This document shows, piece by piece, positions 38,793 to 57,096 of a stretch of DNA of 64,000 bases. This stretch comes from Pyrinomonadales bacterium. GTDB lineage: Bacteria; Acidobacteriota; Blastocatellia; Pyrinomonadales; Pyrinomonadaceae. The stretch covers positions 375 through 64,374 of the forward strand of contig JBBRYU010000001.1 of assembly GCA_038237345.1 (NCBI GenBank), written 5' to 3'. Every line of letters starts with the position of its first letter. Positions within the stretch are counted from its first letter, which is position 1. Below the pieces are notes generated by a model, which saw only the letters and a list, made by a program, of their open reading frames with translations, made no database searches and was not told the origin of the DNA. Position numbers and translations under genes: made by a program.

Positions 38793-40370
38793 GTGTTAGT
38801 GAGATACCGCCCCGCTCACCGTTATAAATTTTCCGCCTCATGCGTCGGGTTAACGCTATGCCTCGTCTTGCTCGCGGGCTGCACGGGCAGGCGGTCAAGC
38901 ACCGAGCATGAACTGGTCATCGGCGCGCGTGCCGACGACTACGTGGTCGAACCGCTCAAGTCGAAGCTCGGCATGTATCCGCTCAACGCTCAAATCTGCG
39001 AACCGTTGGTGCGCATCACCGCCGATTACCAAATCGAGCCGCTGCTGGCGGTTCGTTGGGAGCATCGGGGCAACACATGGCGTTTCTTTCTCCGCCCGGG
39101 CGTTGTCTTCTCTAACGGTCAGCCGCTCACGAGTGAGGCCGTCAGGTACACCTTCGCGCGGTTAGTGCAAGGCGACCGCGCCGGAATTTATCAGCACATC
39201 TATCTCGACGAGAATTCGGTCAGTGTAGTGGACGACCTCACGGTAGACATCACGCCCGCGCGCCCGAATGAACGACTGCTCGAACAGCTCGGGCACGCGA
39301 ACTACGGCATTATCGCTCCCGGCACGGAGCCTGCCGCCGAACCGGTTGGGACAGGCCCGTTCAAGCTCGTCGAGTACCAGCGCGGCCAATGGCTCAAGCT
39401 TGAACGCAACGTGCGGTATTGGGGCCAGCGCCCGCCGCTGGGTCGTCTGACCTTTCGCTTCCTGCCCGACGACACGACACGCGTGTTAGCGCTGCAAGCG
39501 GGTGAGGTCGGCATGATCCTCGACGTGCCGCGCGAACAGGCGGCCACGTTACGCGCGCAGAGGGGAACGCGCGTGGTGGAAGCACCCGTGGGTCGCGTCG
39601 CGTCAATCTTCCTCAATATTCACGGTCAGGCGTCCCATGATCTTCTGGCAAACAGGAACCTGCGGCGTGCGCTCGCGCTGGCGCTCGACCGTCGCGCGCT
39701 GATTGAAAAGGTGTGGGAGGGCAACGGCGAGTTGGTCGCAACTATCGGCCCGCGCGCGATGCTCGGCGAACACGGCTCAATGGTAGCGGGCTTTCCCTAC
39801 GATCCGCAGGGGGCGGCACAGTTGCTGACGCAAGCAGGATGGACGCCGGGCGCGGACGGCGTGCGGGTGCGCGAGGGGCGGCGGTTGACGTTGACGATCA
39901 TCGCGTGGCCGGAGTTCGACACGGCGACAATCGAGTTCTTGCAGGGACAACTCGCAACCAGCGGAATCGAATTGCGGATCATGAGATCTCCCGACGCGGC
40001 TTCCTATCAGGCGCGGGTCGAGTCCGGCGAGTTCGATCTCGATCTCGAAGGCGCTAATCAGAATGACGCCAACCCGCTCTTTCTGCCCGCGCTGCGCTTC
40101 TATTCTAAAGCAACCAGCAAGACTGTCCGCTACTTCGCGCCCGGCGGTCGTTTCGATGCGGCCATCGAAGCCGGTCTGGCCGCGAATGAGCGCGGACAGG
40201 TCATGCTCCGCTCTGCCGAAGCGCAGCGCATCCTCGTTGACGAGGAAATTGTCGTCATCCCGCTCGCCGGGCTGAAACGCATCTACGCGATGCGCGCCGA
40301 AGTGCGCGGCTTCACCCCTCATCCTTCGCTGTTGCACCAGCGTTGGGATACGATCTCTGTCGAGCGATGA
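38793..40370 (+). CDS. ABC transporter substrate-binding lipoprotein, family 5 (NikA/DppA/OppA type)
   Basis: Lipobox LLAGC. Family-5 SBP features such as GTGPFKLVEYQRGQWLKLERNVRYWG. Confidence 0.85.
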   Translation: MLVRYRPAHRYKFSASCVGLTLCLVLLAGCTGRRSSTEHELVIGARADDYVVEPLKSKLGMYPLNAQICEPLVRITADYQIEPLLAVRWEHRGNTWRFFLRPGVVFSNGQPLTSEAVRYTFARLVQGDRAGIYQHIYLDENSVSVVDDLTVDITPARPNERLLEQLGHANYGIIAPGTEPAAEPVGTGPFKLVEYQRGQWLKLERNVRYWGQRPPLGRLTFRFLPDDTTRVLALQAGEVGMILDVPREQAATLRAQRGTRVVEAPVGRVASIFLNIHGQASHDLLANRNLRRALALALDRRALIEKVWEGNGELVATIGPRAMLGEHGSMVAGFPYDPQGAAQLLTQAGWTPGADGVRVREGRRLTLTIIAWPEFDTATIEFLQGQLATSGIELRIMRSPDAASYQARVESGEFDLDLEGANQNDANPLFLPALRFYSKATSKTVRYFAPGGRFDAAIEAGLAANERGQVMLRSAEAQRILVDEEIVVIPLAGLKRIYAMRAEVRGFTPHPSLLHQRWDTISVER

Positions 40371-41320
40371 AACGCTACGTACTCATCCGCATTCTTTCTC
40401 TTATCCCCCTCTGGCTCGGCATCTCCGTGCTCGCCTTCGCGTTGAGCAATCTCGCGCCGGGCGACCCGGCGACGGTGATCGCGTACCGTCTCTCGGACGC
40501 GCCGCCGAGCGTGGAGCAGATCGCGGCCATCCGCCGCGAATACCACCTGGACGAGCCGCTACCCGTGCGCTACGCGCGATGGCTCGCCGCGGCGGCGCGG
40601 GGCGACCTCGGAATTTCGTACCGGACAAAAACGTCTGTGCTCAAGGAGCTAGCCGCACACTTTCCCGCGACGCTCCAGATCGCGTGTGCAGCGCTCATCA
40701 TCGCCCTTGTTATCGCCCTACCATTCGGCGTGCTGGCGGCGATGCGGCGCGGCTCCTGGTTCGATCACGGGGCGCGGGTGGGCGCGCTGCTCGGCGCGTC
40801 GTTGCCTGGTTACTGGCTGGGTTATCTGCTGATCCTCATTTTCTCCCTTGTCCTCGGCTGGCTGCCGGTGGCCGGACGCGACGGGGCGGGGTCGGCGGCG
40901 TTACCGGCGCTCACGCTCGGTCTCGGTACGGCGGCGACGCTCGCGCGCCTAACGCGCTCAAGTCTGCTCGAAGTGCTGGGCGAAGACTTCATCCGCACGG
41001 CGCGGGCGAAAGGACTCGGTGAGTGGGCGGTCGTCTGGCGGCACGCATTGAAAAGCGCGCTCATCCCTGTGCTGACTGCGACTGGCATCGCTTTCGGTCA
41101 TCTCCTGGGCGGCGCGGTGATAGTGGAGGAAATCTTCGCGTGGCCCGGCGTCGGACATCTGTTAATGAGCTCGATTTACGACCGTGACTACCCGATGATT
41201 CAGGGCTTTGTGCTTTTTATGGGCACGGTTTTCACGCTGCTCAGTCTCCTCATTGATCTCTCGTACCTGTGGATTGACCCGCGTATTCGTTTGGCAAATG
41301 GCAGGCGGGTGGACTGGTGA
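40367..41320 (+). CDS. ABC transporter permease (NikB/DppB type)
   Basis: ATGA overlap with the SBP stop. MKRYVLIRILSLIPLWLGISVLAFALSNLAPGDP. EAA-like loop FIRTARAKGL. Confidence 0.85.
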   Translation: MKRYVLIRILSLIPLWLGISVLAFALSNLAPGDPATVIAYRLSDAPPSVEQIAAIRREYHLDEPLPVRYARWLAAAARGDLGISYRTKTSVLKELAAHFPATLQIACAALIIALVIALPFGVLAAMRRGSWFDHGARVGALLGASLPGYWLGYLLILIFSLVLGWLPVAGRDGAGSAALPALTLGLGTAATLARLTRSSLLEVLGEDFIRTARAKGLGEWAVVWRHALKSALIPVLTATGIAFGHLLGGAVIVEEIFAWPGVGHLLMSSIYDRDYPMIQGFVLFMGTVFTLLSLLIDLSYLWIDPRIRLANGRRVDW

Positions 41321-42246
41321 GCGGCGAGCGTGAAGTTTTTGCAGACGCGCGGGCGCACCGCGACTCGTTCGACGTGGCGGGGCGCAGGGCGTTATCAACC
41401 GCGTGGCTGGGCGGCGGGCAGCAGGGTGTTCTCCGACGATTGGTGCGCGACCGGGCGGCGGTTGTGGGGCTGGTCATCATCGTGCTGCTCGTGGCGCTCG
41501 CGCTCGCCGCGCCGCTCCTCGCGCCGCACGACCCGGCAGCGCAACACCTCCATGCGCGACTCGCAGCACCGAATCTCACGTTCCCACTCGGCACGGATAA
41601 TCTCGGGCGCTGTCTGTTGAGCCGTTTGCTATACGGCGCGCGTGTGTCGTTGGCGGCGGCGACGGCGGCGGCGTTGCTGGCGTTGCTGATTGGCGTCAGC
41701 GTCGGCGCTATTGCCGGCTATGCGGGCGGGTGGGCAGATGTGGTGATCATGCGGTTTGTGGACTTGCTGCTCGCCTTTCCGCTGCTCGTTTTGGCGCTGG
41801 CGATTACGGGCTTTATCGGTGTCGGTATGGGCAGCGTGCTCGTCGGAGTGGTGAGCGTATGGTGGGCGTCTTATGCGCGCATCGTGCGCGGGCTGATGCT
41901 CTCTTTGCGCGAACGTCCGTTCGTCGAAGCCGCGCGGGCGATGGGCGCAGCCCCTGCCCGCATCATCATTCGTCACCTGCTCCCGAATGTGCTGCCACCC
42001 GTCATCGTGCTTGCCACATTGGAAATGGGCGGTTTGCTCTTAGTCATCTCCGGGCTTAACTTTCTCGGTCTCGGTGTGCAGCCGCCGACGCCGGAATGGG
42101 GCGCGATGCTCAACGACGGGCGACCATTCTTGCGCAGCGCGCCGCAACTGATGATCTACCCGGGCCTGGCGATCAGCCTCGCCGTCATGGCGTGCAACCT
42201 GCTCGGTGACGGACTGCGGGACGCGCTCGATCCATACTTGCAGTAG
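41317..42246 (+). CDS. ABC transporter permease (NikC/DppC type)
   Basis: GTGA overlap with the upstream gene. HPLGTDNLGRC-type motif (FPLGTDNLGRCLLSRLLYGARVSL). FVEAARAMGA loop. Confidence 0.85.
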   Translation: MSGEREVFADARAHRDSFDVAGRRALSTAWLGGGQQGVLRRLVRDRAAVVGLVIIVLLVALALAAPLLAPHDPAAQHLHARLAAPNLTFPLGTDNLGRCLLSRLLYGARVSLAAATAAALLALLIGVSVGAIAGYAGGWADVVIMRFVDLLLAFPLLVLALAITGFIGVGMGSVLVGVVSVWWASYARIVRGLMLSLRERPFVEAARAMGAAPARIIIRHLLPNVLPPVIVLATLEMGGLLLVISGLNFLGLGVQPPTPEWGAMLNDGRPFLRSAPQLMIYPGLAISLAVMACNLLGDGLRDALDPYLQ

Positions 42247-42665: not shown

Positions 42666-43076
42666 TCAATTCAACGAGTTCTGGTGCGGCTCATGCGCGG
42701 GCAAGAAATGTTTACACGCGCCCTCGATTGAGTCGGGGTCGTGGCAATCACAGTCCGGCTCGTCGCACTCGAAGTGGCCCGGCTTGAGCATCTCCTCGAA
42801 CTCGTCCGCGAAGCGGCGACCACCTTCTCGCTTCCCTTGCTCCGTTAATGCGTACTTGTCGTCGCCAACCCGTTTGAGCAGCCCGGTAGACACCATCTCC
42901 TCCAGATTGTCCGCCAGGACATCATCTCCGGCACTGAGAAACTTGCGCAGGTCGGCAAGGGTGAACTCCTGCCCGAAGCCCTCGCCCGCCATCCAGTACA
43001 TCACCTGCAAGACTTCATCGCGCCAGTAGACGCTGTTGACCGGATCACCGGCCTTATGTTTATCCTGCTCCGGCAT
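42666..43076 (-). CDS. hypothetical protein with a winged-helix-like core and a Cys/His-rich tail; last gene of the hydrogenase operon
   Basis: 136-aa ORF. C-terminus reads GHFECDEPDCDCHDPDSIEGACKHFLPAHEPH. Confidence 0.6.
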   Translation of the reverse strand: MPEQDKHKAGDPVNSVYWRDEVLQVMYWMAGEGFGQEFTLADLRKFLSAGDDVLADNLEEMVSTGLLKRVGDDKYALTEQGKREGGRRFADEFEEMLKPGHFECDEPDCDCHDPDSIEGACKHFLPAHEPHQNSLN

Positions 43077-43090
43077 AATACCTCACCTCA

Positions 43091-44032
43091 TTAAAGAGCC
43101 ACCTTCACCTTGTCGTCTTCAACTTTCGATGGCATAGAATGAAGTCGCAACTCGGGTTTTTCCACACAAGCGCCCGCGCGTCTCAAGTTGTAACTGTACC
43201 CGTGACAGGTGCAGGTAAGCACGGGGCTATCGAACAGCGCGTCGTCGAGCGTGCGCCCCGACTCGGCGGGGCAGGCGTTACGGTAAGTGTAGAACTCGCC
43301 GTCTAGTTTACAGACCAGCAAGTTGATCTCGGCGTAATTGACGACCTTGAATTGCCCATCCTCGAACCCCAGTGCGCGCACGACCGAGACCCAAGTGCCG
43401 CTCACGTTCGTCGTGTCGGGGCGCGGTCTTTTGATCTGCACCAACTTGGCGGGCGACGCTGCTGCCGCCTCACTTCGCGGCGGAGCGATCATCGCGCCCA
43501 GCAACGCGGCAGCTTTGGCCGTCGCTTCGACTTGCTCGGCCACGCCCTCGATGTCAATCCCCAGAAGTTCGGGCGCGGCCACATCAAGCACCTTTTCAAT
43601 TTCCAGTTTCAGCGCCGCCACCGGCGGAGCGCCTTTGCCGTTGCGCATCAAACGCAGGAGCGCGCGCCCGTCGTCCACACCGAGCAACTTCACGTCGCAG
43701 CCTTGCGCGATTAAAAAGGGGCGCAGCTCTTCAATCGCCCTCGCCACCCTCGTTTCCAACTCTTCCGGCAGGAGATCGTGTATGGTCAGGATCGCACGGA
43801 TGACCTCATCCCCCAGCATCCGCGAGTATATCTCGCTCTTCATCGGCAGCGACTCGAAAGTCGCCAGTATGCGGCGCAGCACCTCCCCGTGCAGTTTGAG
43901 GATGATCTGCACAATGTCCAGAGCTTGCTCGCGCGCTTCCGTGTCCGGGTATTGTTCAAGCTCCGCGACGAGCGCGCTCAACTGCCCGAGCAGTTCTTCC
44001 GCATCGTAGTCCTGAGCCTCGCCCGCGCTCAT
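43091..44032 (-). CDS. NifU-C-like domain fused to a Rieske-like domain
   Basis: IEELRPFLIAQGCDVKLLGVDDGRALLRL resembles the NifU C-terminal fold. The C-terminus has CTCHGYSY (Rieske box 2), but box 1 reads CPAESG, so the His is missing. Confidence 0.65.
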   Translation of the reverse strand: MSAGEAQDYDAEELLGQLSALVAELEQYPDTEAREQALDIVQIILKLHGEVLRRILATFESLPMKSEIYSRMLGDEVIRAILTIHDLLPEELETRVARAIEELRPFLIAQGCDVKLLGVDDGRALLRLMRNGKGAPPVAALKLEIEKVLDVAAPELLGIDIEGVAEQVEATAKAAALLGAMIAPPRSEAAAASPAKLVQIKRPRPDTTNVSGTWVSVVRALGFEDGQFKVVNYAEINLLVCKLDGEFYTYRNACPAESGRTLDDALFDSPVLTCTCHGYSYNLRRAGACVEKPELRLHSMPSKVEDDKVKVAL

Positions 44033-44562
44033 CCGCGCTTCGCCTTCATCACTTCAGCCTTAACGAGTTCAATCGCCTCGCCCACACGGGCTGCGACGAC
44101 GGGGCTGAACTCCAACCCGAAATCCTCTTTCTGCGGCTCGATCTCGACGATGGTCACGTCATCGGGAAGAACGCCGAAGTGCTTGCAGACGATCAAAAGA
44201 TTTTCCAAACTGATGACCCCGGTGATCGCCTCTTCGACGCACGCCTGTATCCCGGCATTGTCGGGCAGCACCCCGTCCCAGGCGTACACCTCCAGCGTGC
44301 CCGGTTCGCGCCCCCGGTTAGCAGCGCTGACGAGCACGACCTTGTCGTATTTAACGGGAGACTCTTCGAGCCACTGGTAGATCATGACGGGGCCGAAATT
44401 GAGGTCTTCGACGTGGACGTGCGGGGGCCAACCCATCTCCGCCATTTCCCCATACAGCACGCGCCCGAATGACAGGTCGCTCATGTTGGAATAGCCGATG
44501 CCCGAAACCAGCACCCTACTGATTTCGGAATGCGGAATGCGGATTTCGGATTGAAGAGTCAT
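44029..44562 (-). CDS. hydrogenase maturation endopeptidase-like protein (divergent)
   Basis: VLVSGIGYSNMSDLSFG stands in place of the GIGNxxxxDDGxG motif. The size (177 aa) and the position directly after the large subunit fit. It overlaps the downstream gene as ATGA. Confidence 0.65.
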   Translation of the reverse strand: MTLQSEIRIPHSEISRVLVSGIGYSNMSDLSFGRVLYGEMAEMGWPPHVHVEDLNFGPVMIYQWLEESPVKYDKVVLVSAANRGREPGTLEVYAWDGVLPDNAGIQACVEEAITGVISLENLLIVCKHFGVLPDDVTIVEIEPQKEDFGLEFSPVVAARVGEAIELVKAEVMKAKRG

Positions 44563-44624: not shown

Positions 44625-45899
44625 TTATCCTTCAGCCGAACAGGCACAGGTGTTGACCTCGCGCACGATCTCGCGCTCGCCGCCGTAGATGTGCGTGGTG
44701 CAGGGCATGCAGGGATCGAAGCTGCGGATGGCGCGGAGCATGTCCACGCCCGTGAAATCCTCCGGGCGCGCGTAGTCTTCGAGGATCGGCGTGTTCAGCA
44801 CGGCCTCTTCGTAGGGGCCGGGGTTGCCGAACGGATCTTTCGGCGAGGCGTTGAAGGTGGACGGCGTGACAATCTGGTAGTTAGTTATTGCGCCCTTATC
44901 TAGCGTCAGGTGGTGCGACAGATAGCCGCGCCCCGCGCCCCAGAAGCCGACGCCGATGCGCTCGCCCATCGGCACCTCGAATTTCGTGCTGACTTTGTCC
45001 TCACCCTTGCGCAAGAGGTCGAACGCCTTCAAGACCATCGTGTAGGCGACCATCAGGTTGTAGCCCATGCAGTAGGCGCGCGCGCGGTTGCGCTCGAAGG
45101 CGTTCCACACCGTGGGAATCTTCCACTCGAAATCCATCTCGCGCAGCATCGTCTTCGGCATGTGAAACTTGAGGCTGTGGCCGGTGGCTTCCATGAACTG
45201 GTTCTTCGGCATCAGCCCGGCGGCGGCGGTCGTCCAGATGCGGGCGTAGGCCCCGGCTTCGACCACCTGCCTGTCCCAGCGCGGCGCGGTGTCCCACGTG
45301 TAGCGATCCTTCCAACTCTCCTTCGACGGCTTCGGCAGCGTCTCTTTATTCCACGGATGATTCGGCGAGAGCGGCGCGCCCGACGGGTCGGTCATAAACC
45401 GCTGTTTGCCGTTTTGGTTCCAGTCTTCGTAATAAGAGTGTTCGACGAACTCTTCGAGACCGAGGTTGAGCTGCTGCAACTTCGTCGTGACGAGTTGGCC
45501 GTCAATGACCGCGCCCGGTGTCGCCCAACGTGCTTCGCCCCACTCGTTGCACCGCGCGTAAGACGCATCGTAAGAGTTCTCGTCGTCCCACATGCCGAGG
45601 TCGATCATGTTTGCCGCCCGCGCGCCGACCTGCTTGTATTCGGGATTGTAGTCGTAGAAGAACTCGGTGAGATCGTCCCATAGCAGGATCATCCGCTTCG
45701 TCCAGTCGATCATCTTCTGGAGCCGCGTGTAGGTCTCGTTGAAGTCCGTGATCGTGACTGTCGAGGACATGCCGCCGGGCACGACCGTCTGCGGGTGCGG
45801 GTACTTGCCGAAAAGCACGGAATAGGCTTCACGCGGTACGCGCGTCATCTTGAGACCATCGAGATACAACTTGCCGGAGAGCGGGTTTAAGCCCTTCAT
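44625..45899 (-). CDS. [NiFe]-hydrogenase large subunit, C-terminal 424-aa part
   Basis: FGKYPHPQTVVPGG region and the C-terminal Ni-binding box RSFDPCMPCTTH. It is in the same frame as 45915-46496, separated only by TAA plus 15 nt. Confidence 0.85.
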   Translation of the reverse strand: MKGLNPLSGKLYLDGLKMTRVPREAYSVLFGKYPHPQTVVPGGMSSTVTITDFNETYTRLQKMIDWTKRMILLWDDLTEFFYDYNPEYKQVGARAANMIDLGMWDDENSYDASYARCNEWGEARWATPGAVIDGQLVTTKLQQLNLGLEEFVEHSYYEDWNQNGKQRFMTDPSGAPLSPNHPWNKETLPKPSKESWKDRYTWDTAPRWDRQVVEAGAYARIWTTAAAGLMPKNQFMEATGHSLKFHMPKTMLREMDFEWKIPTVWNAFERNRARAYCMGYNLMVAYTMVLKAFDLLRKGEDKVSTKFEVPMGERIGVGFWGAGRGYLSHHLTLDKGAITNYQIVTPSTFNASPKDPFGNPGPYEEAVLNTPILEDYARPEDFTGVDMLRAIRSFDPCMPCTTHIYGGEREIVREVNTCACSAEG

Positions 45900-45914
45900 G
45901 ATGTCACCGATAGT

Positions 45915-46496
45915 TTAGAACTGATGAACCTCGGCGTTCGCTGCTTCCGTCACCTTCGCCTTCTCCCACATCGCCGGGGTGGTCGCTTCGACGACGACCT
46001 GCGAGTAGTCCGGGCCGGCGAGCAGGAAGAGATGGAGCGGGTGGTCGTACAGAAAATCGAGCGCGAGCGCGAGATTGCGCAGCACCGTACCGAGCGGCGG
46101 CGGCGAAATCCCGAAGGCCATCTCGATGGCCTCGCAAGCGGCGGTCGAGTGGACGCCGCCGCAGACGCCGCAGGCGCGACTCGAAATATAGATGGCGTCC
46201 CGCGGGTCGCGCCCCTTCAGGATCACTTCGTAGCCGCGAAAGATGGTCGCAATCGAGTTGGCGTCGAGGAACTTGCGCTCCTGCAAATCGGCCACGGCGT
46301 GGAACGAGAGCGCGCCCGCCACGCGCGTCACCGGCGAGATGCTGACATCCTTGATGTGCCCGTTGCGCGCGAGCAGTTCTTCTAGCTTGTCACGCTTGAT
46401 CTCACGCGGTTTGTAGGCGTAAGGGTCAACCATCCCGCCTTTGAGGTGCGCGTTACCCTGCGCGTCGAATTCAACTGGAAGATTCTTGAAGCACAT
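45915..46496 (-). CDS. [NiFe]-hydrogenase large subunit, N-terminal 193-aa part, ending at an in-frame TAA (45917-45915)
   Basis: Contains the L1 box SSRACGVCGGVH. The N-terminal motif reads SPVTRVAGAL instead of the usual PxTRxEGH. Confidence 0.85.
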   Translation of the reverse strand: MCFKNLPVEFDAQGNAHLKGGMVDPYAYKPREIKRDKLEELLARNGHIKDVSISPVTRVAGALSFHAVADLQERKFLDANSIATIFRGYEVILKGRDPRDAIYISSRACGVCGGVHSTAACEAIEMAFGISPPPLGTVLRNLALALDFLYDHPLHLFLLAGPDYSQVVVEATTPAMWEKAKVTEAANAEVHQF

Positions 46497-46604: not shown

Positions 46605-46928
46605 TCAGAAGTTAAAAGTTTCTTCCTCGGCGACCAAGAGAACCGGCGGCCCGCCGGTGGAAATTGAAGTGGCGTGCGCTAACGTCTCCTGCCCGCCGGC
46701 GGAAGCGGCACAGGCTTCGAGGGCTGCCATTGACGGAAAGTGGATTTCCGCGATCCGGTGAAATGCAGGCTCGCCCTGTGGGGAGCCGAACACCTTCGTC
46801 GCTATGAATTTGGTCTTGCCTGCCAGCTTTTCAATGGCCATCGGCACATGCTCGTCTTGATAGGCTTTCTCGAAGGCTTCGAGATCATCCGGGCGAGGGT
46901 ACATCACGATTAGTTTCACTCCAGCCAT
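46605..46928 (-). CDS. EthD-family protein
   Basis: Start MAGVKLIVMYPRPDDLEAFEKAYQDEHVPM (ATG 46928, GGGAGGG upstream). This is the typical EthD pattern. It lies between the small and large subunit genes. Confidence 0.75.
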   Translation of the reverse strand: MAGVKLIVMYPRPDDLEAFEKAYQDEHVPMAIEKLAGKTKFIATKVFGSPQGEPAFHRIAEIHFPSMAALEACAASAGGQETLAHATSISTGGPPVLLVAEEETFNF

Positions 46929-46950: not shown

Positions 46951-48375
46951 TCAAACTCTCTTCGCCGCTTCCTTCGCCCGATCTTCGGGCAGCACCTGAT
47001 AATCACTGTCACCATAGACACGACCGGGAAGGCTCCGGTGTCCCAGGGGGAACTTCACCTGCGGATTTCGTTCGGGACGCTTCGCACCTTGAAACTGCAT
47101 CGCCTCGTAGAAGACTTCGAGAATCCTGTGCGTGAGCGAAGTGTTGCCCTTCTCCATCGCCCACCCGCTCGGCACCGTGTCGTGCCAGCGTATTTCGCGG
47201 TTGCGCTCGCGCTGGCTGATGCGCCGCAGCGGACGGATGATCGAGCCGAGCAGGCGCGAGGCGTTGCTCGACACGAGCGATCCCGGCGGCGACTTGTAGA
47301 AGGGCGAGAACTTGTCGGGGAAGCCGGGCATCGTGCAGCCGATGCAAGGCGCACCGGAGTTCATGCACCCGCCCATGTGCGCGATAGCGCCCTTCTCCGT
47401 GATGTTGCAGTTGACGACCGGCCCCCAGCAGCCGATCTCCACTAGACACTCCTTGTCGCCGTACTCTTTCGCGAAACTCCCTTCCTCGTAGAAGCCGGCG
47501 CGCACGCAGTGGGTATGTACCGTCTCGGAGAACTGCCACGCCGGGCGACCCAGCTCGTCGAACTCAGGTAGGGGGCCGAGACCTTGCAGGAAGAGGAGAA
47601 TCGCCTGCACCGCGTCGGTGAAGTTGTCGCCGACGGGGGCGCAGCCCGGAATGTTGATGACGGGCAAGCCGAGAGCGGAGCGGTAATCTTTGCCGAGCCA
47701 ATCCATCACGCTCATTGAGCCGGTGATGTTGCCGTAGGCCGCGGGGATGCCGCCCCACGTCGCGCACGTGCCAACGGCGATAACGGCCGCCGCGCCCGGC
47801 GAGAGCCGCTTGATCCACTCGGCGGTCGAGACGCGCCGGCGCTGATTGCTCGGTGCCCAGAGGGGCAGCGAGCCTTCACCGGCGAACGGCTCGCCGCCGG
47901 CGGTCAAATTCTCGTCGGGGATCGAGCCTTCGTAAGCAATGACGTAAGGGCCGTCGAGTTCCCCCCGCTCGGCCATCAACAGCGATTGGATGTAATGGTC
48001 GCCAGCTTCGAGTTGCAGCACGTAGTGGTGCAGGATGACGAGCGGCACGCCCGGAATGGAGCCGGTCAGCAAATCTTCGAGCGCCGGTTCGGTCGCGCCG
48101 CTCACAGAGACGGTGCAGCCGTCGCAACTCATCCCGGCGAGCCAGAAGACGTAGACCTTCTCTAACGGGCCGAGACTAAGCATGGTCTTGCCCTGCGACT
48201 CGTGTATGTCTTCGATCAATTCTTCCGACGTGCGTCGCCCGACGTTGCCAACTTGATCCGGCAGGCTGGTCGTCGATGAAATACGCTGCTTATGACTACC
48301 AGCCTCGCCGCCGTGTTTCTCAGGAATCTCGCCCATTAAATTTCCCTCTCCCCATGCTGTGCCAGCGATGCTCAT
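46951..48375 (-). CDS. [NiFe]-hydrogenase small subunit (long form, no Tat signal)
   Basis: FWLAGMSCDGC, AVGTCATWGGIPAA, NIPGCAP, and the distal cluster CWGPVVNCN...GGCMNSGAPCIGCTMPGFPDKF. There is no RRxFxK plus hydrophobic region. A C-terminal extension of about 110 aa is present. The start overlaps the upstream small gene as ATGA. Confidence 0.85.
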   Translation of the reverse strand: MSIAGTAWGEGNLMGEIPEKHGGEAGSHKQRISSTTSLPDQVGNVGRRTSEELIEDIHESQGKTMLSLGPLEKVYVFWLAGMSCDGCTVSVSGATEPALEDLLTGSIPGVPLVILHHYVLQLEAGDHYIQSLLMAERGELDGPYVIAYEGSIPDENLTAGGEPFAGEGSLPLWAPSNQRRRVSTAEWIKRLSPGAAAVIAVGTCATWGGIPAAYGNITGSMSVMDWLGKDYRSALGLPVINIPGCAPVGDNFTDAVQAILLFLQGLGPLPEFDELGRPAWQFSETVHTHCVRAGFYEEGSFAKEYGDKECLVEIGCWGPVVNCNITEKGAIAHMGGCMNSGAPCIGCTMPGFPDKFSPFYKSPPGSLVSSNASRLLGSIIRPLRRISQRERNREIRWHDTVPSGWAMEKGNTSLTHRILEVFYEAMQFQGAKRPERNPQVKFPLGHRSLPGRVYGDSDYQVLPEDRAKEAAKRV

Positions 48376-48662
48376 CCACGCAGCAACGCTTCGCCCACCG
48401 TACCCACGTTTGCGTCCACGTTGGTGAAGTGCGCCGCGACGGATTCCAGCCCGCCCGCGAGCGCCGTCAAGCCCCCGTTGAGCGTCTCCACCCCGCCGAG
48501 CATCTCCGTCTCTTTCTCAATCGCGCGCACGCCCCAGTTGATCTTCTCGATATACTTTCGCACCGATTGGAGCGTGCGCAAAATCAGAAAGAGAGACACG
48601 ACGAGCGCGATCAGCAAACTCGCGGCGAGCAGCGCCGTCAGGATCGTTAACAGCAATATCAT
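48372..48662 (-). CDS. small single-pass membrane protein D (96 aa), DUF948-like architecture
   Basis: GGAGGAGG precedes ATG 48662. MILLLTILTALLAASLLIALVVSLFLIL, then ...ETLNGGLTALAGGLESVAAHFTNVD. Paralog of protein B. Confidence 0.7.
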   Translation of the reverse strand: MILLLTILTALLAASLLIALVVSLFLILRTLQSVRKYIEKINWGVRAIEKETEMLGGVETLNGGLTALAGGLESVAAHFTNVDANVGTVGEALLRG

Positions 48663-48663
48663 C

Positions 48664-48969
48664 TTACGACCTCCTCCCGACGAGCGCGGCCCCGACCGCA
48701 CCCAGCTTCTGTTCAATCGAAGCCGACCCCGCATCAATCGCGCCGGCAACAGCCAGAATCTTCCCGGCCACGCCCCTCGTCGTTTCCAACCCCGAGATCA
48801 GAGCGGTGTTGCGCACGATGCCCTGCGCCGCAGTGAGCGTAGTGGACGCGAGTTGCAGGATGTCTCTCTCTGTCCGCACGATCAGGAACACGAGTTTCAA
48901 AATAAACAGCGTCAGGATGAGCGCGACGATTAAGGTCGCCGACCAGACGATGATGATCGCAGTGTCCAT
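48664..48969 (-). CDS. small single-pass membrane protein C (101 aa)
   Basis: MDTAIIIVWSATLIVALILTLFILKLVFLIV, then ...VRNTALISGLETTRGVAGKILAVAGAID..SIEQKLGAVGAAL. Paralog of protein A. Confidence 0.7.
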   Translation of the reverse strand: MDTAIIIVWSATLIVALILTLFILKLVFLIVRTERDILQLASTTLTAAQGIVRNTALISGLETTRGVAGKILAVAGAIDAGSASIEQKLGAVGAALVGRRS

Positions 48970-49016
48970 AGTTCACTCGCCTTTCAAATGACGGGGCGAC
49001 TCCGAGTCGAGAGCAG

Positions 49017-49316
49017 TCACACCATCTCACCGATGCCGAGATGCGCCGCGACTGCGTTCAAGCTCTCGTCCACCCCGGAGAGATGCCCGTCAACCGACTG
49101 CAACCCATCCCCGACGCTTGTCAACCCGCCGTTGATGAATTCCAGATGCCCCTGCAAAGGCGCGGTGTTCTCCCGCGCCTGAATCAGCCCGCGCTTAACT
49201 TCGGCGAGCGCGCTGCCGATGCGCCAGAGGTAGAAGCAGATCGTAATCAGGCTCACGGCCAGCGCCAGCACCAGCACGACGGCGTAGATGACAGTCAGCC
49301 ACGTAAGTAGTCGCAT
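49017..49316 (-). CDS. small single-pass membrane protein B (99 aa)
   Basis: Start MRLLTWLTVIYAVVLVLALAVSLITICFYL (ATG 49316, GAGGTG upstream), then ...EFINGGLTSVGDGLQSVDGHLSGVD. Confidence 0.7.
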   Translation of the reverse strand: MRLLTWLTVIYAVVLVLALAVSLITICFYLWRIGSALAEVKRGLIQARENTAPLQGHLEFINGGLTSVGDGLQSVDGHLSGVDESLNAVAAHLGIGEMV

Positions 49317-49320
49317 CCCG

Positions 49321-49629
49321 TCACCTCTTCGGCGCGAGCGCATTGCCGAGCGCCGCTATCGTGTTGTCAATTGATTCCGCGCGCGTGTTGATCGACTGCG
49401 CGGTCTCCAGAATCTGCCCCGCGACCCGGTTGGTCACGTTCAGCATCCAGATCGAGACGGTGTTGCCCGCGATCTGTTTGCCCGCGTCCCAGATGTTGCT
49501 CGCGTTCTTGTTCACGCGGTTGGCCGCCGCGATGAGCATGATAAGCAAAACCGCGACGATGACGATCACCACCGCGCCCGCGACGAGCGAGTAAGTCCAG
49601 ATCGTCATCGTGTCCATGTGCTCGAACAT
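49321..49629 (-). CDS. small single-pass membrane protein A (102 aa)
   Basis: Start MFEHMDTMTIWTYSLVAGAVVIVIVAVLLIMLI (ATG 49629, AGGAGGG 8 nt upstream), then ...AGNTVSIWMLNVTNRVAGQILETAQSIN..SIDNTIAALGNAL. Confidence 0.7.
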   Translation of the reverse strand: MFEHMDTMTIWTYSLVAGAVVIVIVAVLLIMLIAAANRVNKNASNIWDAGKQIAGNTVSIWMLNVTNRVAGQILETAQSINTRAESIDNTIAALGNALAPKR

Positions 49630-49630
49630 C

Positions 49631-50428
49631 CTATTTCCCTCCTGCTTCAACGGCGTTGCTTGCGAATTCATGTAGGAGAAAATCTGCCACGCGCGACAGC
49701 TCTGCGACGATGGGAGCAGTCACATCGTAATCAATCACCGCGCGCCCCGTCCTGTCAGCCTCGGTTACGTTCTCATCGAAAGGAATGCCAGCTATTAGTT
49801 GTAAATCGTGCTTACGGCAATATGCCCGGACGGCTTCCTCGTCCTGCGGACTGCGGAGTTTGTTGCCGATGCCGTAGATGCGCTTTAGCCCTAGTTCGCG
49901 CGCGAGCGGCACAGTTCGTCCGGCGGTCTCCATCGAACGATAGTAAGGCTCAAGGACGACGAGCAGCGCGTCAACGTATCTGAGCGTGCCCCGGCTCAGA
50001 TGTTCGATAGAAGCCTCCATGTCCATCACGGTCACGCTCTCTGTACTGTTGACGATCTCACCGACGAGGCTGCGCACGGCAGCGTGTGCGCCGCAGAGTC
50101 AACCCGCGCCCGCGTGATCGACGCGCGTGCCGACCAGCACCGTCACACCGTCGGGGGCCTTCAGCCCGTACTGGCTGATGATCTCGGCCACCGGTCTCGT
50201 CAGCACATGTCGGGTCGCGCCCGTCTCGTCCTCGCGCCGCTCGACGATGCTGCGCGGTATTGACTCGATCTCCACGCCGGGGCCGACGCCCAGAGCCTGT
50301 AAGAGATTAGGATTCGGGTCGCCGTCAATCGCGAGCACGGGCAGACCGCGCCGGGCCAACAGGCGTGTGAGCGTCGCCGAGATGGTAGTTTTGCCGGAAC
50401 CGCCTTTACCACTGACCGCAATCTTCAT
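49631..50428 (-). CDS. CooC-type (MinD/ParA superfamily) nickel-insertion ATPase with an in-frame UGA at 50101-50099
   Basis: Track ORFs 50099-50428 and 49631-50077 share one continuous frame. The joined product is 265 aa: MKIAVSGKGGSGKTT..., AIDGDPNPNL, GTRVDHAGAG-UGA-LCGAHAAVRSLV, VMDMEASIEHLSRGT. The UGA replaces the first Cys of the CooC CxC motif. Confidence 0.75.
50069..50094 (-). other. candidate SECIS-like hairpin after the CooC UGA
   Basis: mRNA GCGCAC-ACGCUGCC-GUGCGC (6 perfect bp, 8-nt loop), extended by 2 bp across one mismatch. The perfect stem begins 7 nt after the UGA. Found by hand folding only. Confidence 0.35.
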
Positions 50429-50593: not shown

Positions 50594-51097
50594 GTGATGA
50601 GAATCCTGATCGCCGGTGTCGGAAATGTGCTGCGGGGCGATGACGGCTTCGGCGTCGAAGTAGCGCAGGCGCTCGCCCGCAACCGTAACCTTCCTGCTAC
50701 CGTCACACTATTCGAGGCTGGGATAGCCGGCATCCCGCTCGTACAGGAGTTGATGGACGGCTACGACGCGCTCATCATCGCGGACGCCGTCGAGCGGGGC
50801 GGCGCGCCGGGCACGATTTATGTTATCGAGCCTGACATTGCCGATCCTGCCCTCCTTGATCCTGCCGCGCTACACGCTTCGTTAGCCGATGCTCATTACA
50901 CGGAGCCGTCAAAAGTCTTAATTCTGGCCAAGGCGTTGAGCGTGTTACCGCCGCAAGTATTCGTCGTCGGTTGCCAGCCGGCGGGCTTCGATGAGTTGGG
51001 GGCTGAACTGAGCGCGCCGGTGCGGGCCGCGGTGCAGTTGGCCGTCCAACGCATAGCAGCGCTGGTCGCGCGCCTGAGTCAGCAAGAGACATTATGA
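50594..51097 (+). CDS. hydrogenase maturation endopeptidase (canonical HybD/HupD type)
   Basis: MRILIAGVGNVLRGDDGFGVEVAQAL, ALIIADAV and DAHYTEP. Its stop overlaps the downstream ABC permease start as ATGA. Confidence 0.85.
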   Translation: MMRILIAGVGNVLRGDDGFGVEVAQALARNRNLPATVTLFEAGIAGIPLVQELMDGYDALIIADAVERGGAPGTIYVIEPDIADPALLDPAALHASLADAHYTEPSKVLILAKALSVLPPQVFVVGCQPAGFDELGAELSAPVRAAVQLAVQRIAALVARLSQQETL

Positions 51098-52101
51098 GAT
51101 TGCGCCGCCGGTTAATCGCACGCTTATCCGGCCGCCTGCTCATCAAGCGTGCCGTGCAATCGGCGCTCTTAATCCTCACGCTCATCATCATCAACTTCCT
51201 GCTGATTCATCTCGCGCCGGGCGACCCTGTGCATATCCTCGCCGGTCAGAGCGGCGACGAAAAATACTACGAGTTCATCCGCGCGCAATTCGGTCTCGAC
51301 CGCCCGCTCGCAACGCAACTCTGGATTTATCTAGCGCGCGTGCTGCGCGGCGACTTCGGCTACTCGCTCGGCTACCAGCAGCCGGTCAGCGCCGTCATCC
51401 TCGCGCGTGTTCCAGCGACGCTCCTGTTAACGCTCAGCGCTGTATCTCTCTCGTCGGTCGGCGGTGTGGCGCTCGGCGTCGAGGCCGCGCGCAGAGAGAA
51501 TTCGCTGACAGATGGCGCGATCAACACCTTCGCGCTGGTGGGCTACTCCGTCCCTTCCTTCTCCATCGGCCATCTGCTGCTCATCGTCTTCGCGCTCCGC
51601 CTCGGTCTCTTCCCCGTGCAAAATATGTCTTCCGCGCAACAGGAGTTGACGGGCGCGGCTTACGGTCTCGACGTGCTCGCGCATCTCGTCTTGCCGGTCG
51701 TGTCGCTCGCCATCGTCTACCTCGCACAGATCATGCGCCTGACGCGCACGGCGATGCTGGGCGTGCTGGGCGAGAACTTCATCACCGCAGCCCGCGCTAA
51801 GGGCTTGCCGGAGCGCCGTGTGCTGTACGGGCACGCGTTGCGGAACGCGCTGTTGCCGATTGTCACGGTCGTCGGCCACGACTTCGGCATGCTGCTGAGC
51901 GGCGCGGTGTTGGTCGAGACGGTGTTCGCGTGGCCGGGTCTCGGCCGGCTAATGATCGATGCGCTCGCCATGCGTGATTACCCGGTCTTGCTGGGGCTGT
52001 TTCTCATGATCTCGATCAGCGTCGTCGTGTTGAATTTCATGATCGATCTGATCTATGCCGCGCTCGATCCGCGCATCAACTATGGACGAACAAGCAAATG
52101 A
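51094..52101 (+). CDS. ABC transporter permease (NikB/DppB type), second set
   Basis: LLIKRAVQSALLILTLIIINFLLIHLAPGDP. FITAARAKGL loop. Confidence 0.85.
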   Translation: MRLRRRLIARLSGRLLIKRAVQSALLILTLIIINFLLIHLAPGDPVHILAGQSGDEKYYEFIRAQFGLDRPLATQLWIYLARVLRGDFGYSLGYQQPVSAVILARVPATLLLTLSAVSLSSVGGVALGVEAARRENSLTDGAINTFALVGYSVPSFSIGHLLLIVFALRLGLFPVQNMSSAQQELTGAAYGLDVLAHLVLPVVSLAIVYLAQIMRLTRTAMLGVLGENFITAARAKGLPERRVLYGHALRNALLPIVTVVGHDFGMLLSGAVLVETVFAWPGLGRLMIDALAMRDYPVLLGLFLMISISVVVLNFMIDLIYAALDPRINYGRTSK

Positions 52102-52979
52102 GGCGCGAGACGATCAACTTACGCGCGCCGGAGAGTTGGGTCATCTGGCACAGCTTCAGGCGCAGCCGGACGGCAGTGGCCGGCGTTATCCTACTGCTGC
52201 TCTTTCTCTGTGCTGCCCTGTTTGCCGCGCAGATCGCGCCGCGCGATCCGCAGCAGACTTCGGCCGCAAGTCTCCGCCCGCCCTCCGCGCAGTTCCTGTG
52301 CGGCACGGACGATCTCGGCCGCGACGTGTTCAGTGGGGTCGTGCATGGCGCGCGTATATCAATCTCGATAGGCGTCACCGTGGCTCTGTTGAGCAGTTTG
52401 CTCGGCGTGTTGATTGGCGCGACGGCGGGCTATGCGGGTGGACTCGTTGACGATCTGTTGATGCGGCTCACGGAGCTTTTCATGATCCCGCCCAGATTCT
52501 TTCTGGCCCTCATCACCGCCGCGCTCTTCGGCTCGACCATGTTCACGCTGATCGCTGTGCTGAGCGTCACCTACTGGCCGCATACGGCGCGACTCGTGCG
52601 GGCGGAAGTCATGTCACTCAAGGAGCGAAGTTTTGTCGAAGCCGCCCGCGCCATGGGCGCGAGTCCCGCGCGCATACTATTTCACGACATCATGCCGAAT
52701 GCCTTGCCGCTCATCGTGACCAACGTCGTGCTAATGGTGGGCGGGGTAATACTTGTCGAAGCGGGGTTGGAATTTATCGGTCTCGGCGACAGCAGGTACA
52801 TCAGTTGGGGCTACATGCTGCACAACGGCGAGCACTTCATCCGCGATGCATGGTGGATCATCTTCTTCCCGGCGCTGGCCATCTCGCTGCTCGTCCTCGC
52901 GCTCAATGCCGTCGGCGACGCCCTCAACCGCGCGCTTGACCCTAAATCGCGGAGAGAAGGTCTCAGTAAAATTATCTGA
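52098..52979 (+). CDS. ABC transporter permease (NikC/DppC type), second set
   Basis: ATGA overlap with the upstream gene. FLCGTDDLGRDVFSGVVHGARISI. FVEAARAMGA loop. Confidence 0.85.
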   Translation: MRRETINLRAPESWVIWHSFRRSRTAVAGVILLLLFLCAALFAAQIAPRDPQQTSAASLRPPSAQFLCGTDDLGRDVFSGVVHGARISISIGVTVALLSSLLGVLIGATAGYAGGLVDDLLMRLTELFMIPPRFFLALITAALFGSTMFTLIAVLSVTYWPHTARLVRAEVMSLKERSFVEAARAMGASPARILFHDIMPNALPLIVTNVVLMVGGVILVEAGLEFIGLGDSRYISWGYMLHNGEHFIRDAWWIIFFPALAISLLVLALNAVGDALNRALDPKSRREGLSKII

Positions 52980-56752: not shown

Positions 56753-57096
56753 AAACACACCAATGAGCCATTTCTGCAATAGCAAGGTGGCTGCGTAGCA
56801 GAACGCGCAGGCTCACCAAGGCACGCAATTCCCCTATAGCTCCCTGCCTGCCGGCACAAAGCCGTGACCTCTGTGTAAGCTCGTGCAAAATTAACTTTAA
56901 CTATATCATCAACCGGCGGCTTGGGAATTCCGCTAAATTAAAGCATCCCAACAGATGCTAAACGCATCTATGCCTATCTGCTTGAGAAGGCAGAGGATAT
57001 ACTAACTTGTGCGACCTGATGCTGACCCGTACAATGGGCCTTGCACGGACTTTCACGCCGTGTGCCGCCCAGCGACGGCTCAAGCGATAGTGGAAG

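What the first reader, a model, noticed from the sequence alone, without database searches (positions are those of the whole stretch)
44625..46496. [NiFe]-hydrogenase large subunit split by an in-frame TAA, and lacking the canonical TRxEGH glutamate
The 193-aa ORF carries the L1 box RACGVCGGVH. The 424-aa ORF carries the L2 box DPCMPCTTH. They are in the same frame and are separated only by TAA (45917-45915) and five sense codons (TIGDI) before an ATG.

Three explanations are possible:
- a very recent nonsense mutation, or a sequencing error, in an otherwise intact operon;
- a naturally two-piece large subunit, given the weak GGTGA 4 nt before the second ATG;
- a decaying locus.

Separately, the N-terminal motif reads SPVTRVAGAL where standard enzymes have PxTRxEGH. 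That Glu is known as a proton-transfer gate in standard [NiFe] enzymes. There is also an N-terminal extension of about 50 aa.

The small subunit has no Tat signal and carries a long C-terminal tail, so the enzyme looks like a divergent cytoplasm-facing uptake type rather than a textbook group 1 enzyme. The stop is TAA, so this is not a Sec site.
Basis: seen in the sequence. Interest (0 to 1): 0.7.

Follow-up and report, generated by a model that had tools for sequence, protein, structure and literature searches.

The report
Hydrogenase gene with one premature stop
This is an ordinary soil-bacterium "group 1l-type" hydrogen-scavenging [NiFe]-hydrogenase gene that carries a single premature TAA stop seen in none of more than 200 relatives, so it is a one-off lesion (a mutation or a base-call error), and the "missing" glutamate is normal for this enzyme class.

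Summary
The two minus-strand ORFs 46496-45915 and 45899-44625 are one [NiFe]-hydrogenase large-subunit gene, interrupted by an in-frame TAA (45917-45915) at codon 194.

The stop is unique to this sequence. All 120 best database homologues are single proteins of 620-635 aa. All 80 genome loci and all 24 metagenome loci read through this position, and the closest have Lys (AAG or AAA) in an identical context, HQF-K-TIGDIM.

The gene shows no other damage:
- All 171 positions that are invariant in 88 relatives are kept.
- dN/dS against the nearest relative is 0.058.
- The other 11 cluster genes are intact.

I read this as a single AAA→TAA lesion, either a recent nonsense mutation or a consensus error. 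It is not an evolved two-piece enzyme and not a decaying locus.

The other "atypical" traits are family traits. PVTRVAG is invariant, and the solved 1h enzyme 5AA5 has Val at the Glu position. The MCFKNLP N-terminus, the lack of a Tat signal and the long small-subunit tail are also shared across the family. The traits match the published group 1l: a four-Cys proximal cluster, HylE, HupD and single-pass membrane ORFs.

A side observation is more interesting than the finding. The neighbouring CooC-like ATPase has a conserved UGA (selenocysteine) at its metal-binding CxC motif.

The parts
44625..46496 (-). hylL-type [NiFe]-hydrogenase large-subunit gene. It has 623 codons plus the natural TAA TAA terminator, with one internal TAA.
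   Evidence: Searches give the sequence. One search gives the Pfam PF00374 hits on both fragments. Searches show 5AA5 as the best sequence and fold match. Searches give full-length homologues.
45915..45917 (-). Premature in-frame TAA at codon 194. Close relatives have Lys here (AAG or AAA).
   Evidence: None of 80 genome loci or 24 metagenome loci has a stop at this position.
45915..46496 (-). N-terminal fragment of 193 aa. It holds the conserved MCFKNLP N-terminus, PVTRVAGAL (46334-46308) and the L1 nickel-ligand motif RACGVCGGVH (46178-46149).
44625..45899 (-). C-terminal fragment of 424 aa, counted from the internal ATG. It holds the L2 motif DPCMPCTTH (44717-44691) and a 21-aa C-terminal extension (44690-44628) with an invariant T-C-x-C.
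45897..45908 (-). GGTGAC ATC ATG: a Shine-Dalgarno-like GGTGA plus ATG, both inside the coding sequence for G-D-I-M. GGT is a synonymous codon unique to the window. Relatives have GGC, GGG or GGA.
46951..48375 (-). Small subunit (hylS-type). It has no Tat signal, a C-D-G-C proximal-cluster motif and a C-terminal extension.
46605..46919 (-). EthD-family gene inserted between the small and large subunit genes. This placement is specific to the lineage.
48372..49671 (-). Four consecutive short ORFs for single-pass membrane proteins (HylTM-like), lying upstream of the small subunit.
   Evidence: One search gives the translations, each with one hydrophobic helix. One search shows they are conserved and intact in L001, L009 and L006.
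49631..50428 (-). CooC-like P-loop ATPase with an in-frame TGA at 50101-50099. The TGA sits at the first Cys of the CxC metal motif and is a probable selenocysteine codon.
44029..44562 (-). Hydrogenase maturation endopeptidase (HupD-type).
43091..44032 (-). NifU-like plus Rieske iron-sulfur protein (HylE/HhyE-type).
42666..43076 (-). Conserved 136-aa ORF of the cluster. It has no family assignment.

Best explanation
The locus encodes a normal cytoplasm-facing, high-affinity-type uptake [NiFe]-hydrogenase. It belongs to the lineage published as group 1l (Hyl), the sister of group 1h.

In this one sequence the large-subunit gene carries a recent point lesion, Lys194 (AAA) to TAA. I take it to be a real nonsense mutation. 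Translation then ends after 193 residues, so the N-terminal pair of nickel-ligand cysteines (L1) is separated from the C-terminal pair (L2), and the strain makes little or no active enzyme.

What is shown:
- The stop is present.
- It is unique among relatives.
- The rest of the gene and the cluster are intact and under purifying selection.

What is inferred:
- The lesion is real rather than a base-call error.
- It abolishes activity.

The absent Glu, the N-terminal extension, the lack of a Tat signal and the long small-subunit tail are traits of the family. They have nothing to do with the lesion.
For: Uniqueness of the stop:
- All 120 best homologues are single proteins of 620-635 aa covering 99-100% of the query.
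- None of 80 genome loci has a stop in the aligned gene. At this column they have R31, K19, A19, and the nearest relative (95% aa identity) reads AEVHQF-K-TIGDIM.
- None of 24 metagenome loci of the close clade has a stop. Their codons are AAG 15, AAA 7, GAA 1, GCA 1.
- AAA to TAA is a single base change.

No other damage:
- All 171 positions invariant in 88 relatives are kept.
- dN/dS against L001 is 0.058, the same as between intact relatives.
- Changes on the window branch are 32 synonymous and 12.7 non-synonymous, against 34 and 11 on the sister branch.
- All other cluster genes are intact against L001, L009 and L006.

TAA is a working stop here. The gene's own terminator is TAA TAA.

Class traits:
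- PVTRVAG and the MCFKNLP N-terminus are invariant in the family.
- 5AA5 has Val at the Glu position.
- The small subunit has C-D-G-C where 5AA5 has C-D-G-D, and a C-terminal extension. This matches Supplementary Note 1 of bioRxiv 10.1101/2020.08.06.239558.
Against: - No reads are available, so a consensus or base-call error cannot be excluded.
- No contig from the same species was found in any collection. The best match is 90% nt identity.
- Low dN/dS on a long branch is also what a still-functional split gene would show.
- An ATG with an SD-like GGTGA lies 15 nt after the stop. The GGT codon that creates it is one of only 9 window-unique synonymous codons among 430. This could hint at selection for re-initiation.
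Confidence: 0.55

Rival explanations
1. This is a sequencing, assembly or consensus artefact. The organism's true codon is AAA or AAG (Lys), the gene is intact, and the enzyme is functional.
For: - The lesion is a single base in an otherwise perfectly conserved gene.
- Every relative has a sense codon at this position.
- A second window-unique base (GGC to GGT) lies only 9 nt away. This could mark a locally poor consensus or a mixed-strain consensus.
Against: - It is a substitution, not a homopolymer indel.
- The rest of the cluster showed no other unexpected stop or frameshift, and neither did a nearby 2-kb stretch that I read.
- From general knowledge, consensus substitution errors in modern assemblies are rarer than genuine nonsense polymorphisms.
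Confidence: 0.25
2. This is a working two-piece large subunit. Ribosomes terminate at TAA and re-initiate at the ATG 15 nt downstream, helped by GGTGA. The 193-aa and 424-aa fragments then co-fold and are matured into an active enzyme.
For: - The SD/anti-SD duplex energy for the internal ATG is -7.4 kcal/mol. Most relatives give -3.5, and the gene's own start gives -6.6.
- The GGT codon that creates GGTGA is absent from the 28 clade sequences inspected at that codon (7 genome and 24 metagenome loci, 3 of them duplicates). Only 2.1% of amino-acid-invariant codons carry such a window-unique synonym.
- Residue 194 is a variable column and lies in a short linker between helices in the model.
- Purifying selection persists on the window branch.
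- From my own knowledge, there is a precedent for split large subunits: VhuA/VhuU of Methanococcus voltae.
Against: - No relative is split.
- Restarting at Met200 would delete K194-I199. That includes the nearly invariant Thr195 and the first turn of helix 196-202, in a region modelled at pLDDT about 95.
- The ATG and the GG-GA are ordinary coding sequence for G-D-I-M in every relative.
- -7.4 kcal/mol ranks only 5th among the 26 ATG triplets inside the gene.
- One synonymous change is weak evidence.
Confidence: 0.1
3. The locus is decaying. The hydrogenase cluster is being lost and the stop is one of several lesions.
For: A second gene of the cluster, the CooC-like ATPase, also looks split by an in-frame stop.
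Against: - That second stop is TGA. It is conserved in 48 related loci across several phyla, is replaced by Cys codons in 14, and is followed by a covarying hairpin. It is a Sec codon, not damage.
- All other cluster genes are intact.
- There is no relaxed selection in hylL.
Confidence: 0.03
4. The TAA is recoded or efficiently read through, by a suppressor tRNA or a changed genetic code, so a full-length protein is made.
For: The organism does recode a stop codon: UGA is read as Sec in selD and in the CooC-like gene.
Against: - The Sec machinery reads UGA, not UAA.
- TAA TAA terminates this very gene.
- The only tRNA in the window is tRNA-Glu(UUC).
- No relative has a stop at this position.
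Confidence: 0.03

Closest known systems
Group 1l [NiFe]-hydrogenase (HylLS of Hymenobacter roseosalivarius and many soil MAGs; Ortiz et al., bioRxiv 10.1101/2020.08.06.239558; PMC13554262)
   Same: - The small subunit has a four-Cys proximal cluster (C-D-G-C) and a C-terminal extension.
- There is no Tat signal.
- A NifU/Rieske HylE-type gene, a HupD-type gene and a CbiA/CooC-type ATPase gene sit in the cluster.
- Several short single-pass membrane ORFs are attached to the structural genes.
- 5AA5 is the best structural relative.
- The family is present in Mackay Glacier MAGs, where only groups 1h and 1l occur.
   Different: - There are four membrane ORFs, not five.
- They lie upstream of hylS rather than between hylS and hylL.
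- None has the tri-cysteine tail described for HylTM4.
- An EthD gene sits between hylS and hylL.
- hylL carries a premature TAA.
- I could not align against a named 1l reference sequence.
Group 1h (actinobacterial-type, Hhy/Hof) [NiFe]-hydrogenase, PDB 5AA5
   Same: - It is the best sequence match (509 bits) and the best fold match (TM 0.85).
- It also lacks the TRxEGH glutamate (PITRIVGSL).
- It is cytoplasmic and has no Tat signal.
- It is associated with a Rieske/NifU protein.
   Different: - Identity is only 41.8%.
- L1 is CGVCGGVH here and CGICGDNH in 5AA5.
- L2 is CMPCTTH here and CLPCGVH in 5AA5.
- The proximal cluster ligand is Cys here and Asp in 5AA5.
- The large subunit here has about 28 extra N-terminal residues, and the small subunit is longer at both ends.
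Naturally split large subunit VhuA/VhuU of Methanococcus voltae (from my own knowledge, not tested here)
   Same: The nickel ligands of one active site are carried on two polypeptides.
   Different: - VhuU is a very short C-terminal peptide carrying the L2 ligands, and it is conserved as a separate gene.
- Here the break comes after residue 193, is caused by a stop codon inside a conserved helix-linker region, and is found in no relative.

Membership tests
[NiFe]-hydrogenase large subunit (Pfam PF00374) | N-terminal CxxC (L1) and C-terminal CxxC-H (L2) ligands of the Ni-Fe site | tested here: met
   RACGVCGGVH and DPCMPCTTH are present. C109, C112, C596, C599 and H602 are invariant in the family alignments.
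[NiFe]-hydrogenase large subunit (Pfam PF00374) | Significant match to the family profile and fold | tested here: met
   PF00374 gives 86 and 173 bits against a cut-off of 25.8. A 90%-identical homologue, modelled, gives Foldseek TM 0.85 to 5AA5.
[NiFe]-hydrogenase large subunit (Pfam PF00374) | One uninterrupted reading frame for the catalytic subunit | tested here: not met
   There is an in-frame TAA at codon 194. All relatives are uninterrupted.
[NiFe]-hydrogenase large subunit (Pfam PF00374) | C-terminal extension removed by a dedicated endopeptidase encoded nearby | tested here: met
   A 21-aa tail follows His602. A HupD-type protease gene lies at 44562-44029. Cleavage itself cannot be tested here.
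Group 1l (Hyl) [NiFe]-hydrogenase | Large subunit forms a lineage separate from group 1h (reported as <40% identity) | tested here: inconclusive
   Identity is 41.8% to the 1h reference 5AA5 and 62-95% to family members, including Mackay Glacier MAGs (L019, L039, L065). L052 carries this type plus a 42%-identical 1h-like copy. No named HylL reference sequence was available for a tree.
Group 1l (Hyl) [NiFe]-hydrogenase | Proximal Fe-S cluster of the small subunit ligated by four Cys (Asp in group 1h) | tested here: met
   The window has MSCDGCTVS where 5AA5 has LGCDGDSVS. The criterion comes from Supplementary Note 1.
Group 1l (Hyl) [NiFe]-hydrogenase | C-terminal extension of the small subunit relative to group 1h (about 100 aa) | tested here: met
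   The alignment to 5AA5_A ends at residue 402 of 474, so about 72 residues extend beyond it.
Group 1l (Hyl) [NiFe]-hydrogenase | Five single-pass membrane ORFs (HylTM1-5) between hylS and hylL | tested here: not met
   There are four such ORFs (49671-48372). They lie upstream of hylS and none has a tri-Cys tail. The gap between hylS and hylL holds an EthD gene instead. The paper says the arrangement is 'often', not always, as described.
Group 1l (Hyl) [NiFe]-hydrogenase | Cluster contains a Rieske-type HylE and a maturation endopeptidase | tested here: met
   43091-44032 carries NifU plus Rieske domains. 44029-44562 is HycI/HupD-type.
Group 1h (Hhy) [NiFe]-hydrogenase | Asp ligand at the proximal cluster, and close similarity to characterised 1h enzymes | tested here: not met
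   The window has Cys instead of Asp and only 41.8% identity to 5AA5.
Naturally split large subunit (Vhu-type) | The split is conserved as two genes among relatives | tested here: not met
   No split occurs in 120 proteins, 80 genome loci or 24 metagenome loci.
Selenocysteine recoding site | UGA codon with a downstream SECIS hairpin, and Cys in some homologues | tested here: not met
   The codon is TAA, and homologues have Lys, Arg or Ala, not Cys. By contrast, the CooC-like gene of the same cluster meets all three criteria.

The most novel reading that the evidence does not exclude
The TAA is real and tolerated. Termination followed by re-initiation at the ATG 15 nt downstream yields a two-fragment catalytic subunit that still assembles a Ni-Fe site. 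On this reading, the window-unique GGC to GGT change that creates GGTGA strengthens the restart. It would be a newly born split [NiFe]-hydrogenase large subunit caught in the act.
Probability: 0.08. Interest if true: 0.6.

Novelty: new member of a known kind. Interest (0 to 1): 0.15.

Why it matters
For the finding itself, it matters very little. It tells an annotator to label this hylL as interrupted (a pseudogene, or "check the base call"). It also warns against inferring H2 scavenging for this strain from gene presence alone.

It corrects one impression as well. The absence of the proton-gate glutamate is a shared trait of the group 1h/1l lineage, so any question about proton transfer belongs to the whole class, not to this gene.

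The follow-up that deserves attention is next door. A CooC-type metal-insertion ATPase has a conserved UGA at its metal-binding CxC motif in hydrogenase clusters of at least seven phyla. If this is confirmed as selenocysteine, it would tie selenium to the maturation of the most widespread atmospheric-H2 oxidising enzymes in soils.

Tried and rejected
- Exact-sequence look-ups of both fragments found nothing. The source genome and independent assemblies of it are not in the collection.
- A degenerate-pattern scan of metagenome contigs returned 24 clade loci. None was above 88% nt identity, so I could not check the base at population level.
- I considered reading the second "split" gene (CooC-like) as evidence of decay. 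I rejected this once the TGA proved conserved, with Cys alternates and a covarying hairpin.
- RNAalifold run on its own gave only a weak three-pair version of that hairpin. The explicit five-pair structure was then counted.
- Rfam found nothing but a tRNA in 30000-64000.
- ARAGORN found no suppressor or Sec tRNA in the window.
- I looked for a named group 1l reference sequence in the supplement of the defining paper. The table held is truncated to group 1h entries, so direct membership by alignment could not be done.
- Literature searches for a selenocysteine-containing CooC found nothing relevant.
- I considered frameshifting past the stop and rejected it by inspection. The downstream sequence continues in the same frame.
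Full report
**Observation**

The minus strand between 46496 and 44625 holds one reading frame of 623 codons. It is interrupted once, by TAA at 45917-45915 (codon 194). The local sequence is TTC TAA ACT ATC GGT GAC ATC ATG.

The 193-aa upstream part carries RACGVCGGVH, and the 424-aa downstream part carries DPCMPCTTH. Both parts hit Pfam PF00374 on complementary halves of the model. The gene ends naturally in TAA TAA, so TAA is an ordinary terminator in this organism.

**What the gene is**

The joined protein is most similar to the large subunit of the actinobacterial-type (group 1h) hydrogenase of Ralstonia eutropha, PDB 5AA5. The match is 509 bits at 41.8% identity over 555 residues. An AlphaFold model of a 90%-identical homologue (pTM 0.79) has 5AA5 as its best structural match, with TM 0.85.

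A database search gave 2,997 homologues. The best 120 are all single proteins of 620-635 aa covering 99-100% of the query, at 62-90% identity. In species-representative genomes the family occurs in Acidobacteriota, Chloroflexota, Gemmatimonadota, Actinomycetota, Armatimonadota, Methylomirabilota and Planctomycetota. The nearest locus (L001, an Acidobacteria MAG) is 95% identical in protein and 90% in DNA.

**The stop is unique**

Across 80 genome loci, the aligned gene contains no stop in any of them. The column of the TAA holds R31, K19, A19, E3, G3, S3 and single others. The closest relatives read AEVHQF-K-TIGDIM, identical to the window on both sides.

A degenerate DNA pattern for HQF-x-TIGDIMKG retrieved 24 further metagenome loci of the close clade. 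Their codons at this position are AAG 15, AAA 7, GAA 1 and GCA 1, with no stop. AAA to TAA is one transversion, and relatives such as L091 differ from the window here by just that base plus one more.

**No other sign of decay**

- All 171 positions that are invariant in 88 full-length relatives are kept in the window protein. Leave-one-out controls break 0-3 of them.
- dN/dS against L001 is 0.058, like pairs of intact relatives at 0.036-0.056.
- Parsimony assigns 32 synonymous and 12.7 non-synonymous changes to the window branch, against 34 and 11 for the sister branch.
- Comparison with L001, L009 and L006 shows every other gene of the cluster to be intact and in frame. These are the CooC-like ATPase, four short membrane ORFs, the small subunit, the endopeptidase, the NifU/Rieske protein and a conserved 136-aa ORF.
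- A neighbouring 2-kb stretch that I read also shows tidy, intact genes.

**Is it an evolved split?**

The ATG 15 nt after the stop and the GGTGA before it are simply the coding sequence for G-D-I-M. That sequence is present in all close relatives, and Met200 is nearly invariant across the family.

The window does have GGT where the 28 clade sequences inspected at that codon have GGC, GGG or GGA. This raises the computed SD/anti-SD pairing from about -3.5 to -7.4 kcal/mol. Only 9 of 430 amino-acid-invariant codons carry such a window-unique synonym. That is a small hint in favour of a real, tolerated stop.

Several points count against it:
- -7.4 kcal/mol ranks only 5th of the 26 ATG triplets inside the gene.
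- In the model, residue 194 lies in a short linker (192-195) between helices 188-191 and 196-202, in a region with pLDDT about 95. A restart at Met200 would therefore delete K194-I199, including the nearly invariant Thr195 and the start of a helix.
- No relative is split.

I rate a functional two-piece enzyme at about 0.1.

**Real mutation or artefact?**

This cannot be settled without reads. The exact fragments are not in the contig index, and no same-species contig was found.

I lean towards a real nonsense mutation (0.55 against 0.25). The change is a substitution, and the surrounding assembly looks clean. From general knowledge, genuine nonsense polymorphisms outnumber consensus substitution errors.

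**The "atypical" traits are class traits**

- P55-V-T-R-V-A-G61 is invariant in the first family alignment. In the second, 41-sequence alignment, six of the seven positions are invariant and V59 is nearly so.
- The characterised 1h enzyme 5AA5 reads PITRIVGSL where E. coli Hyd-1 reads PITRIEGHM. The glutamate is therefore absent across this branch of group 1.
- The N-terminus MCF[KQ]NLP...F...G is conserved family-wide.
- The small subunit lacks a twin-arginine signal. Like the published group 1l enzyme, it has C-D-G-C where 5AA5 has C-D-G-D, plus about 72 extra C-terminal residues.

These small-subunit traits, together with the NifU/Rieske and endopeptidase genes and the run of single-pass membrane ORFs, match the description of group 1l in bioRxiv 10.1101/2020.08.06.239558 (main text and Supplementary Note 1). 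The family also occurs in that study's Mackay Glacier MAGs (L019, L039, L065), where only groups 1h and 1l were found.

There are differences from the published arrangement. The window has four rather than five membrane ORFs, and they lie upstream of hylS. The hylS-hylL spacer holds an EthD gene here and a 1,074-aa gene in L001. I could not align against a named 1l reference, because the held supplement is truncated. Membership therefore rests on traits and on elimination.

**Side observation: a probable selenoprotein in the cluster**

The CooC-like ATPase (50428-49631) looked like a second split gene. Its in-frame codon at 50101-50099 is TGA. The same column is TGA in 48 related loci from several phyla and TGC or TGT in 14. 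It aligns with the first Cys of the C-Y-C metal motif of CooC1, PDB 3KJE.

Nineteen nucleotides downstream lies a 5-bp hairpin, GCUGC-CGUGC-GCAGC. Across 20 sequences, 89% of cells pair. There are 14 double-sided compensatory cells against 4.0 in shuffles (0 of 500 shuffles reach it), and shifted registers pair at only 15-50%. The compensatory changes even alter the encoded amino acids (AAVRS versus ATVRG).

The window also encodes SelD (31790-32818) with its own in-frame TGA at 31823-31825, at the catalytic Cys/Sec position. The organism therefore decodes UGA as Sec, and this "split" is not damage. I found no paper describing a Sec-containing CooC.

**Verdict**

The finding is a correct observation of a one-off premature stop in an otherwise ordinary member of a known hydrogenase class. 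The biochemical "atypicality" is normal for that class. Interest is low. The neighbouring UGA-containing CooC-like gene is the item worth a separate look.

Noticed in passing
window 49631-50428 (-), TGA at 50099-50101; also L001, L005, L007-L009 and about 40 other loci: The CooC-like P-loop ATPase of the hydrogenase cluster has an in-frame TGA at the first Cys of the CxC metal-binding motif (G-A-G-U-L-C). The codon is TGA in 48 related loci across several phyla and TGC or TGT in 14. A 5-bp hairpin 19 nt downstream shows compensatory changes. This looks like an undescribed selenoprotein tied to group 1l hydrogenase maturation. Gene callers will split it in two. No paper on it was found.
   Followed up: partly
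window 31790-32818 (+), TGA at 31823-31825: The selenophosphate synthetase gene selD (TIGR00476, 337 bits) has an in-frame TGA in V-A-C-A-G-U-A-A-K, the known Sec/Cys position of SelD, and a strong AGGAGGTG ribosome-binding site. This shows the organism uses selenocysteine.
   Followed up: partly
window 46491-46493 (Cys2) and 44640-44648 (Cys617-x-Cys619) of the large subunit (-): Family-wide invariant cysteines lie outside the active-site motifs. One is Cys2 in the N-terminus MCF[KQ]NLP. The other two are a T-C-x-C motif inside the C-terminal tail, which would normally be cut off after His602. Their function is unknown. A role in metal delivery during maturation is only a guess.
   Followed up: no
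window 46605-46919 (-); L001 4578-7802; L007 7154-7475: The spacer between hylS and hylL varies within this clade. It holds an EthD-family gene here, a 1,074-aa gene in L001, and only about 66 nt in L009. In L007 the EthD gene lies downstream of hylL instead.
   Followed up: partly
window 50594-51097 (+), 38793-42246 (+), 51094-52979 (+), 55049-56785 (-): A second, HybD-type maturation protease gene is transcribed divergently from the cluster. Two sets of Opp/Nik-type ABC transporter components (solute-binding protein plus two permeases) flank the hydrogenase genes. These may serve nickel uptake. No hypA-F genes lie within the annotated part of the window.
   Followed up: no
window 62016-63086 (+): Release factor 2 (prfB, 510 bits) appears to be encoded in a single frame, matching profile positions 8-352 of 353. 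It seems to lack the programmed +1 frameshift found in many bacteria.
   Followed up: no
L003 4665-5307: In the related MAG locus L003, the CooC-like gene aligns as two overlapping pieces that do not join in one frame around the Sec region. This is either a frameshift or an assembly error in that MAG.
   Followed up: no
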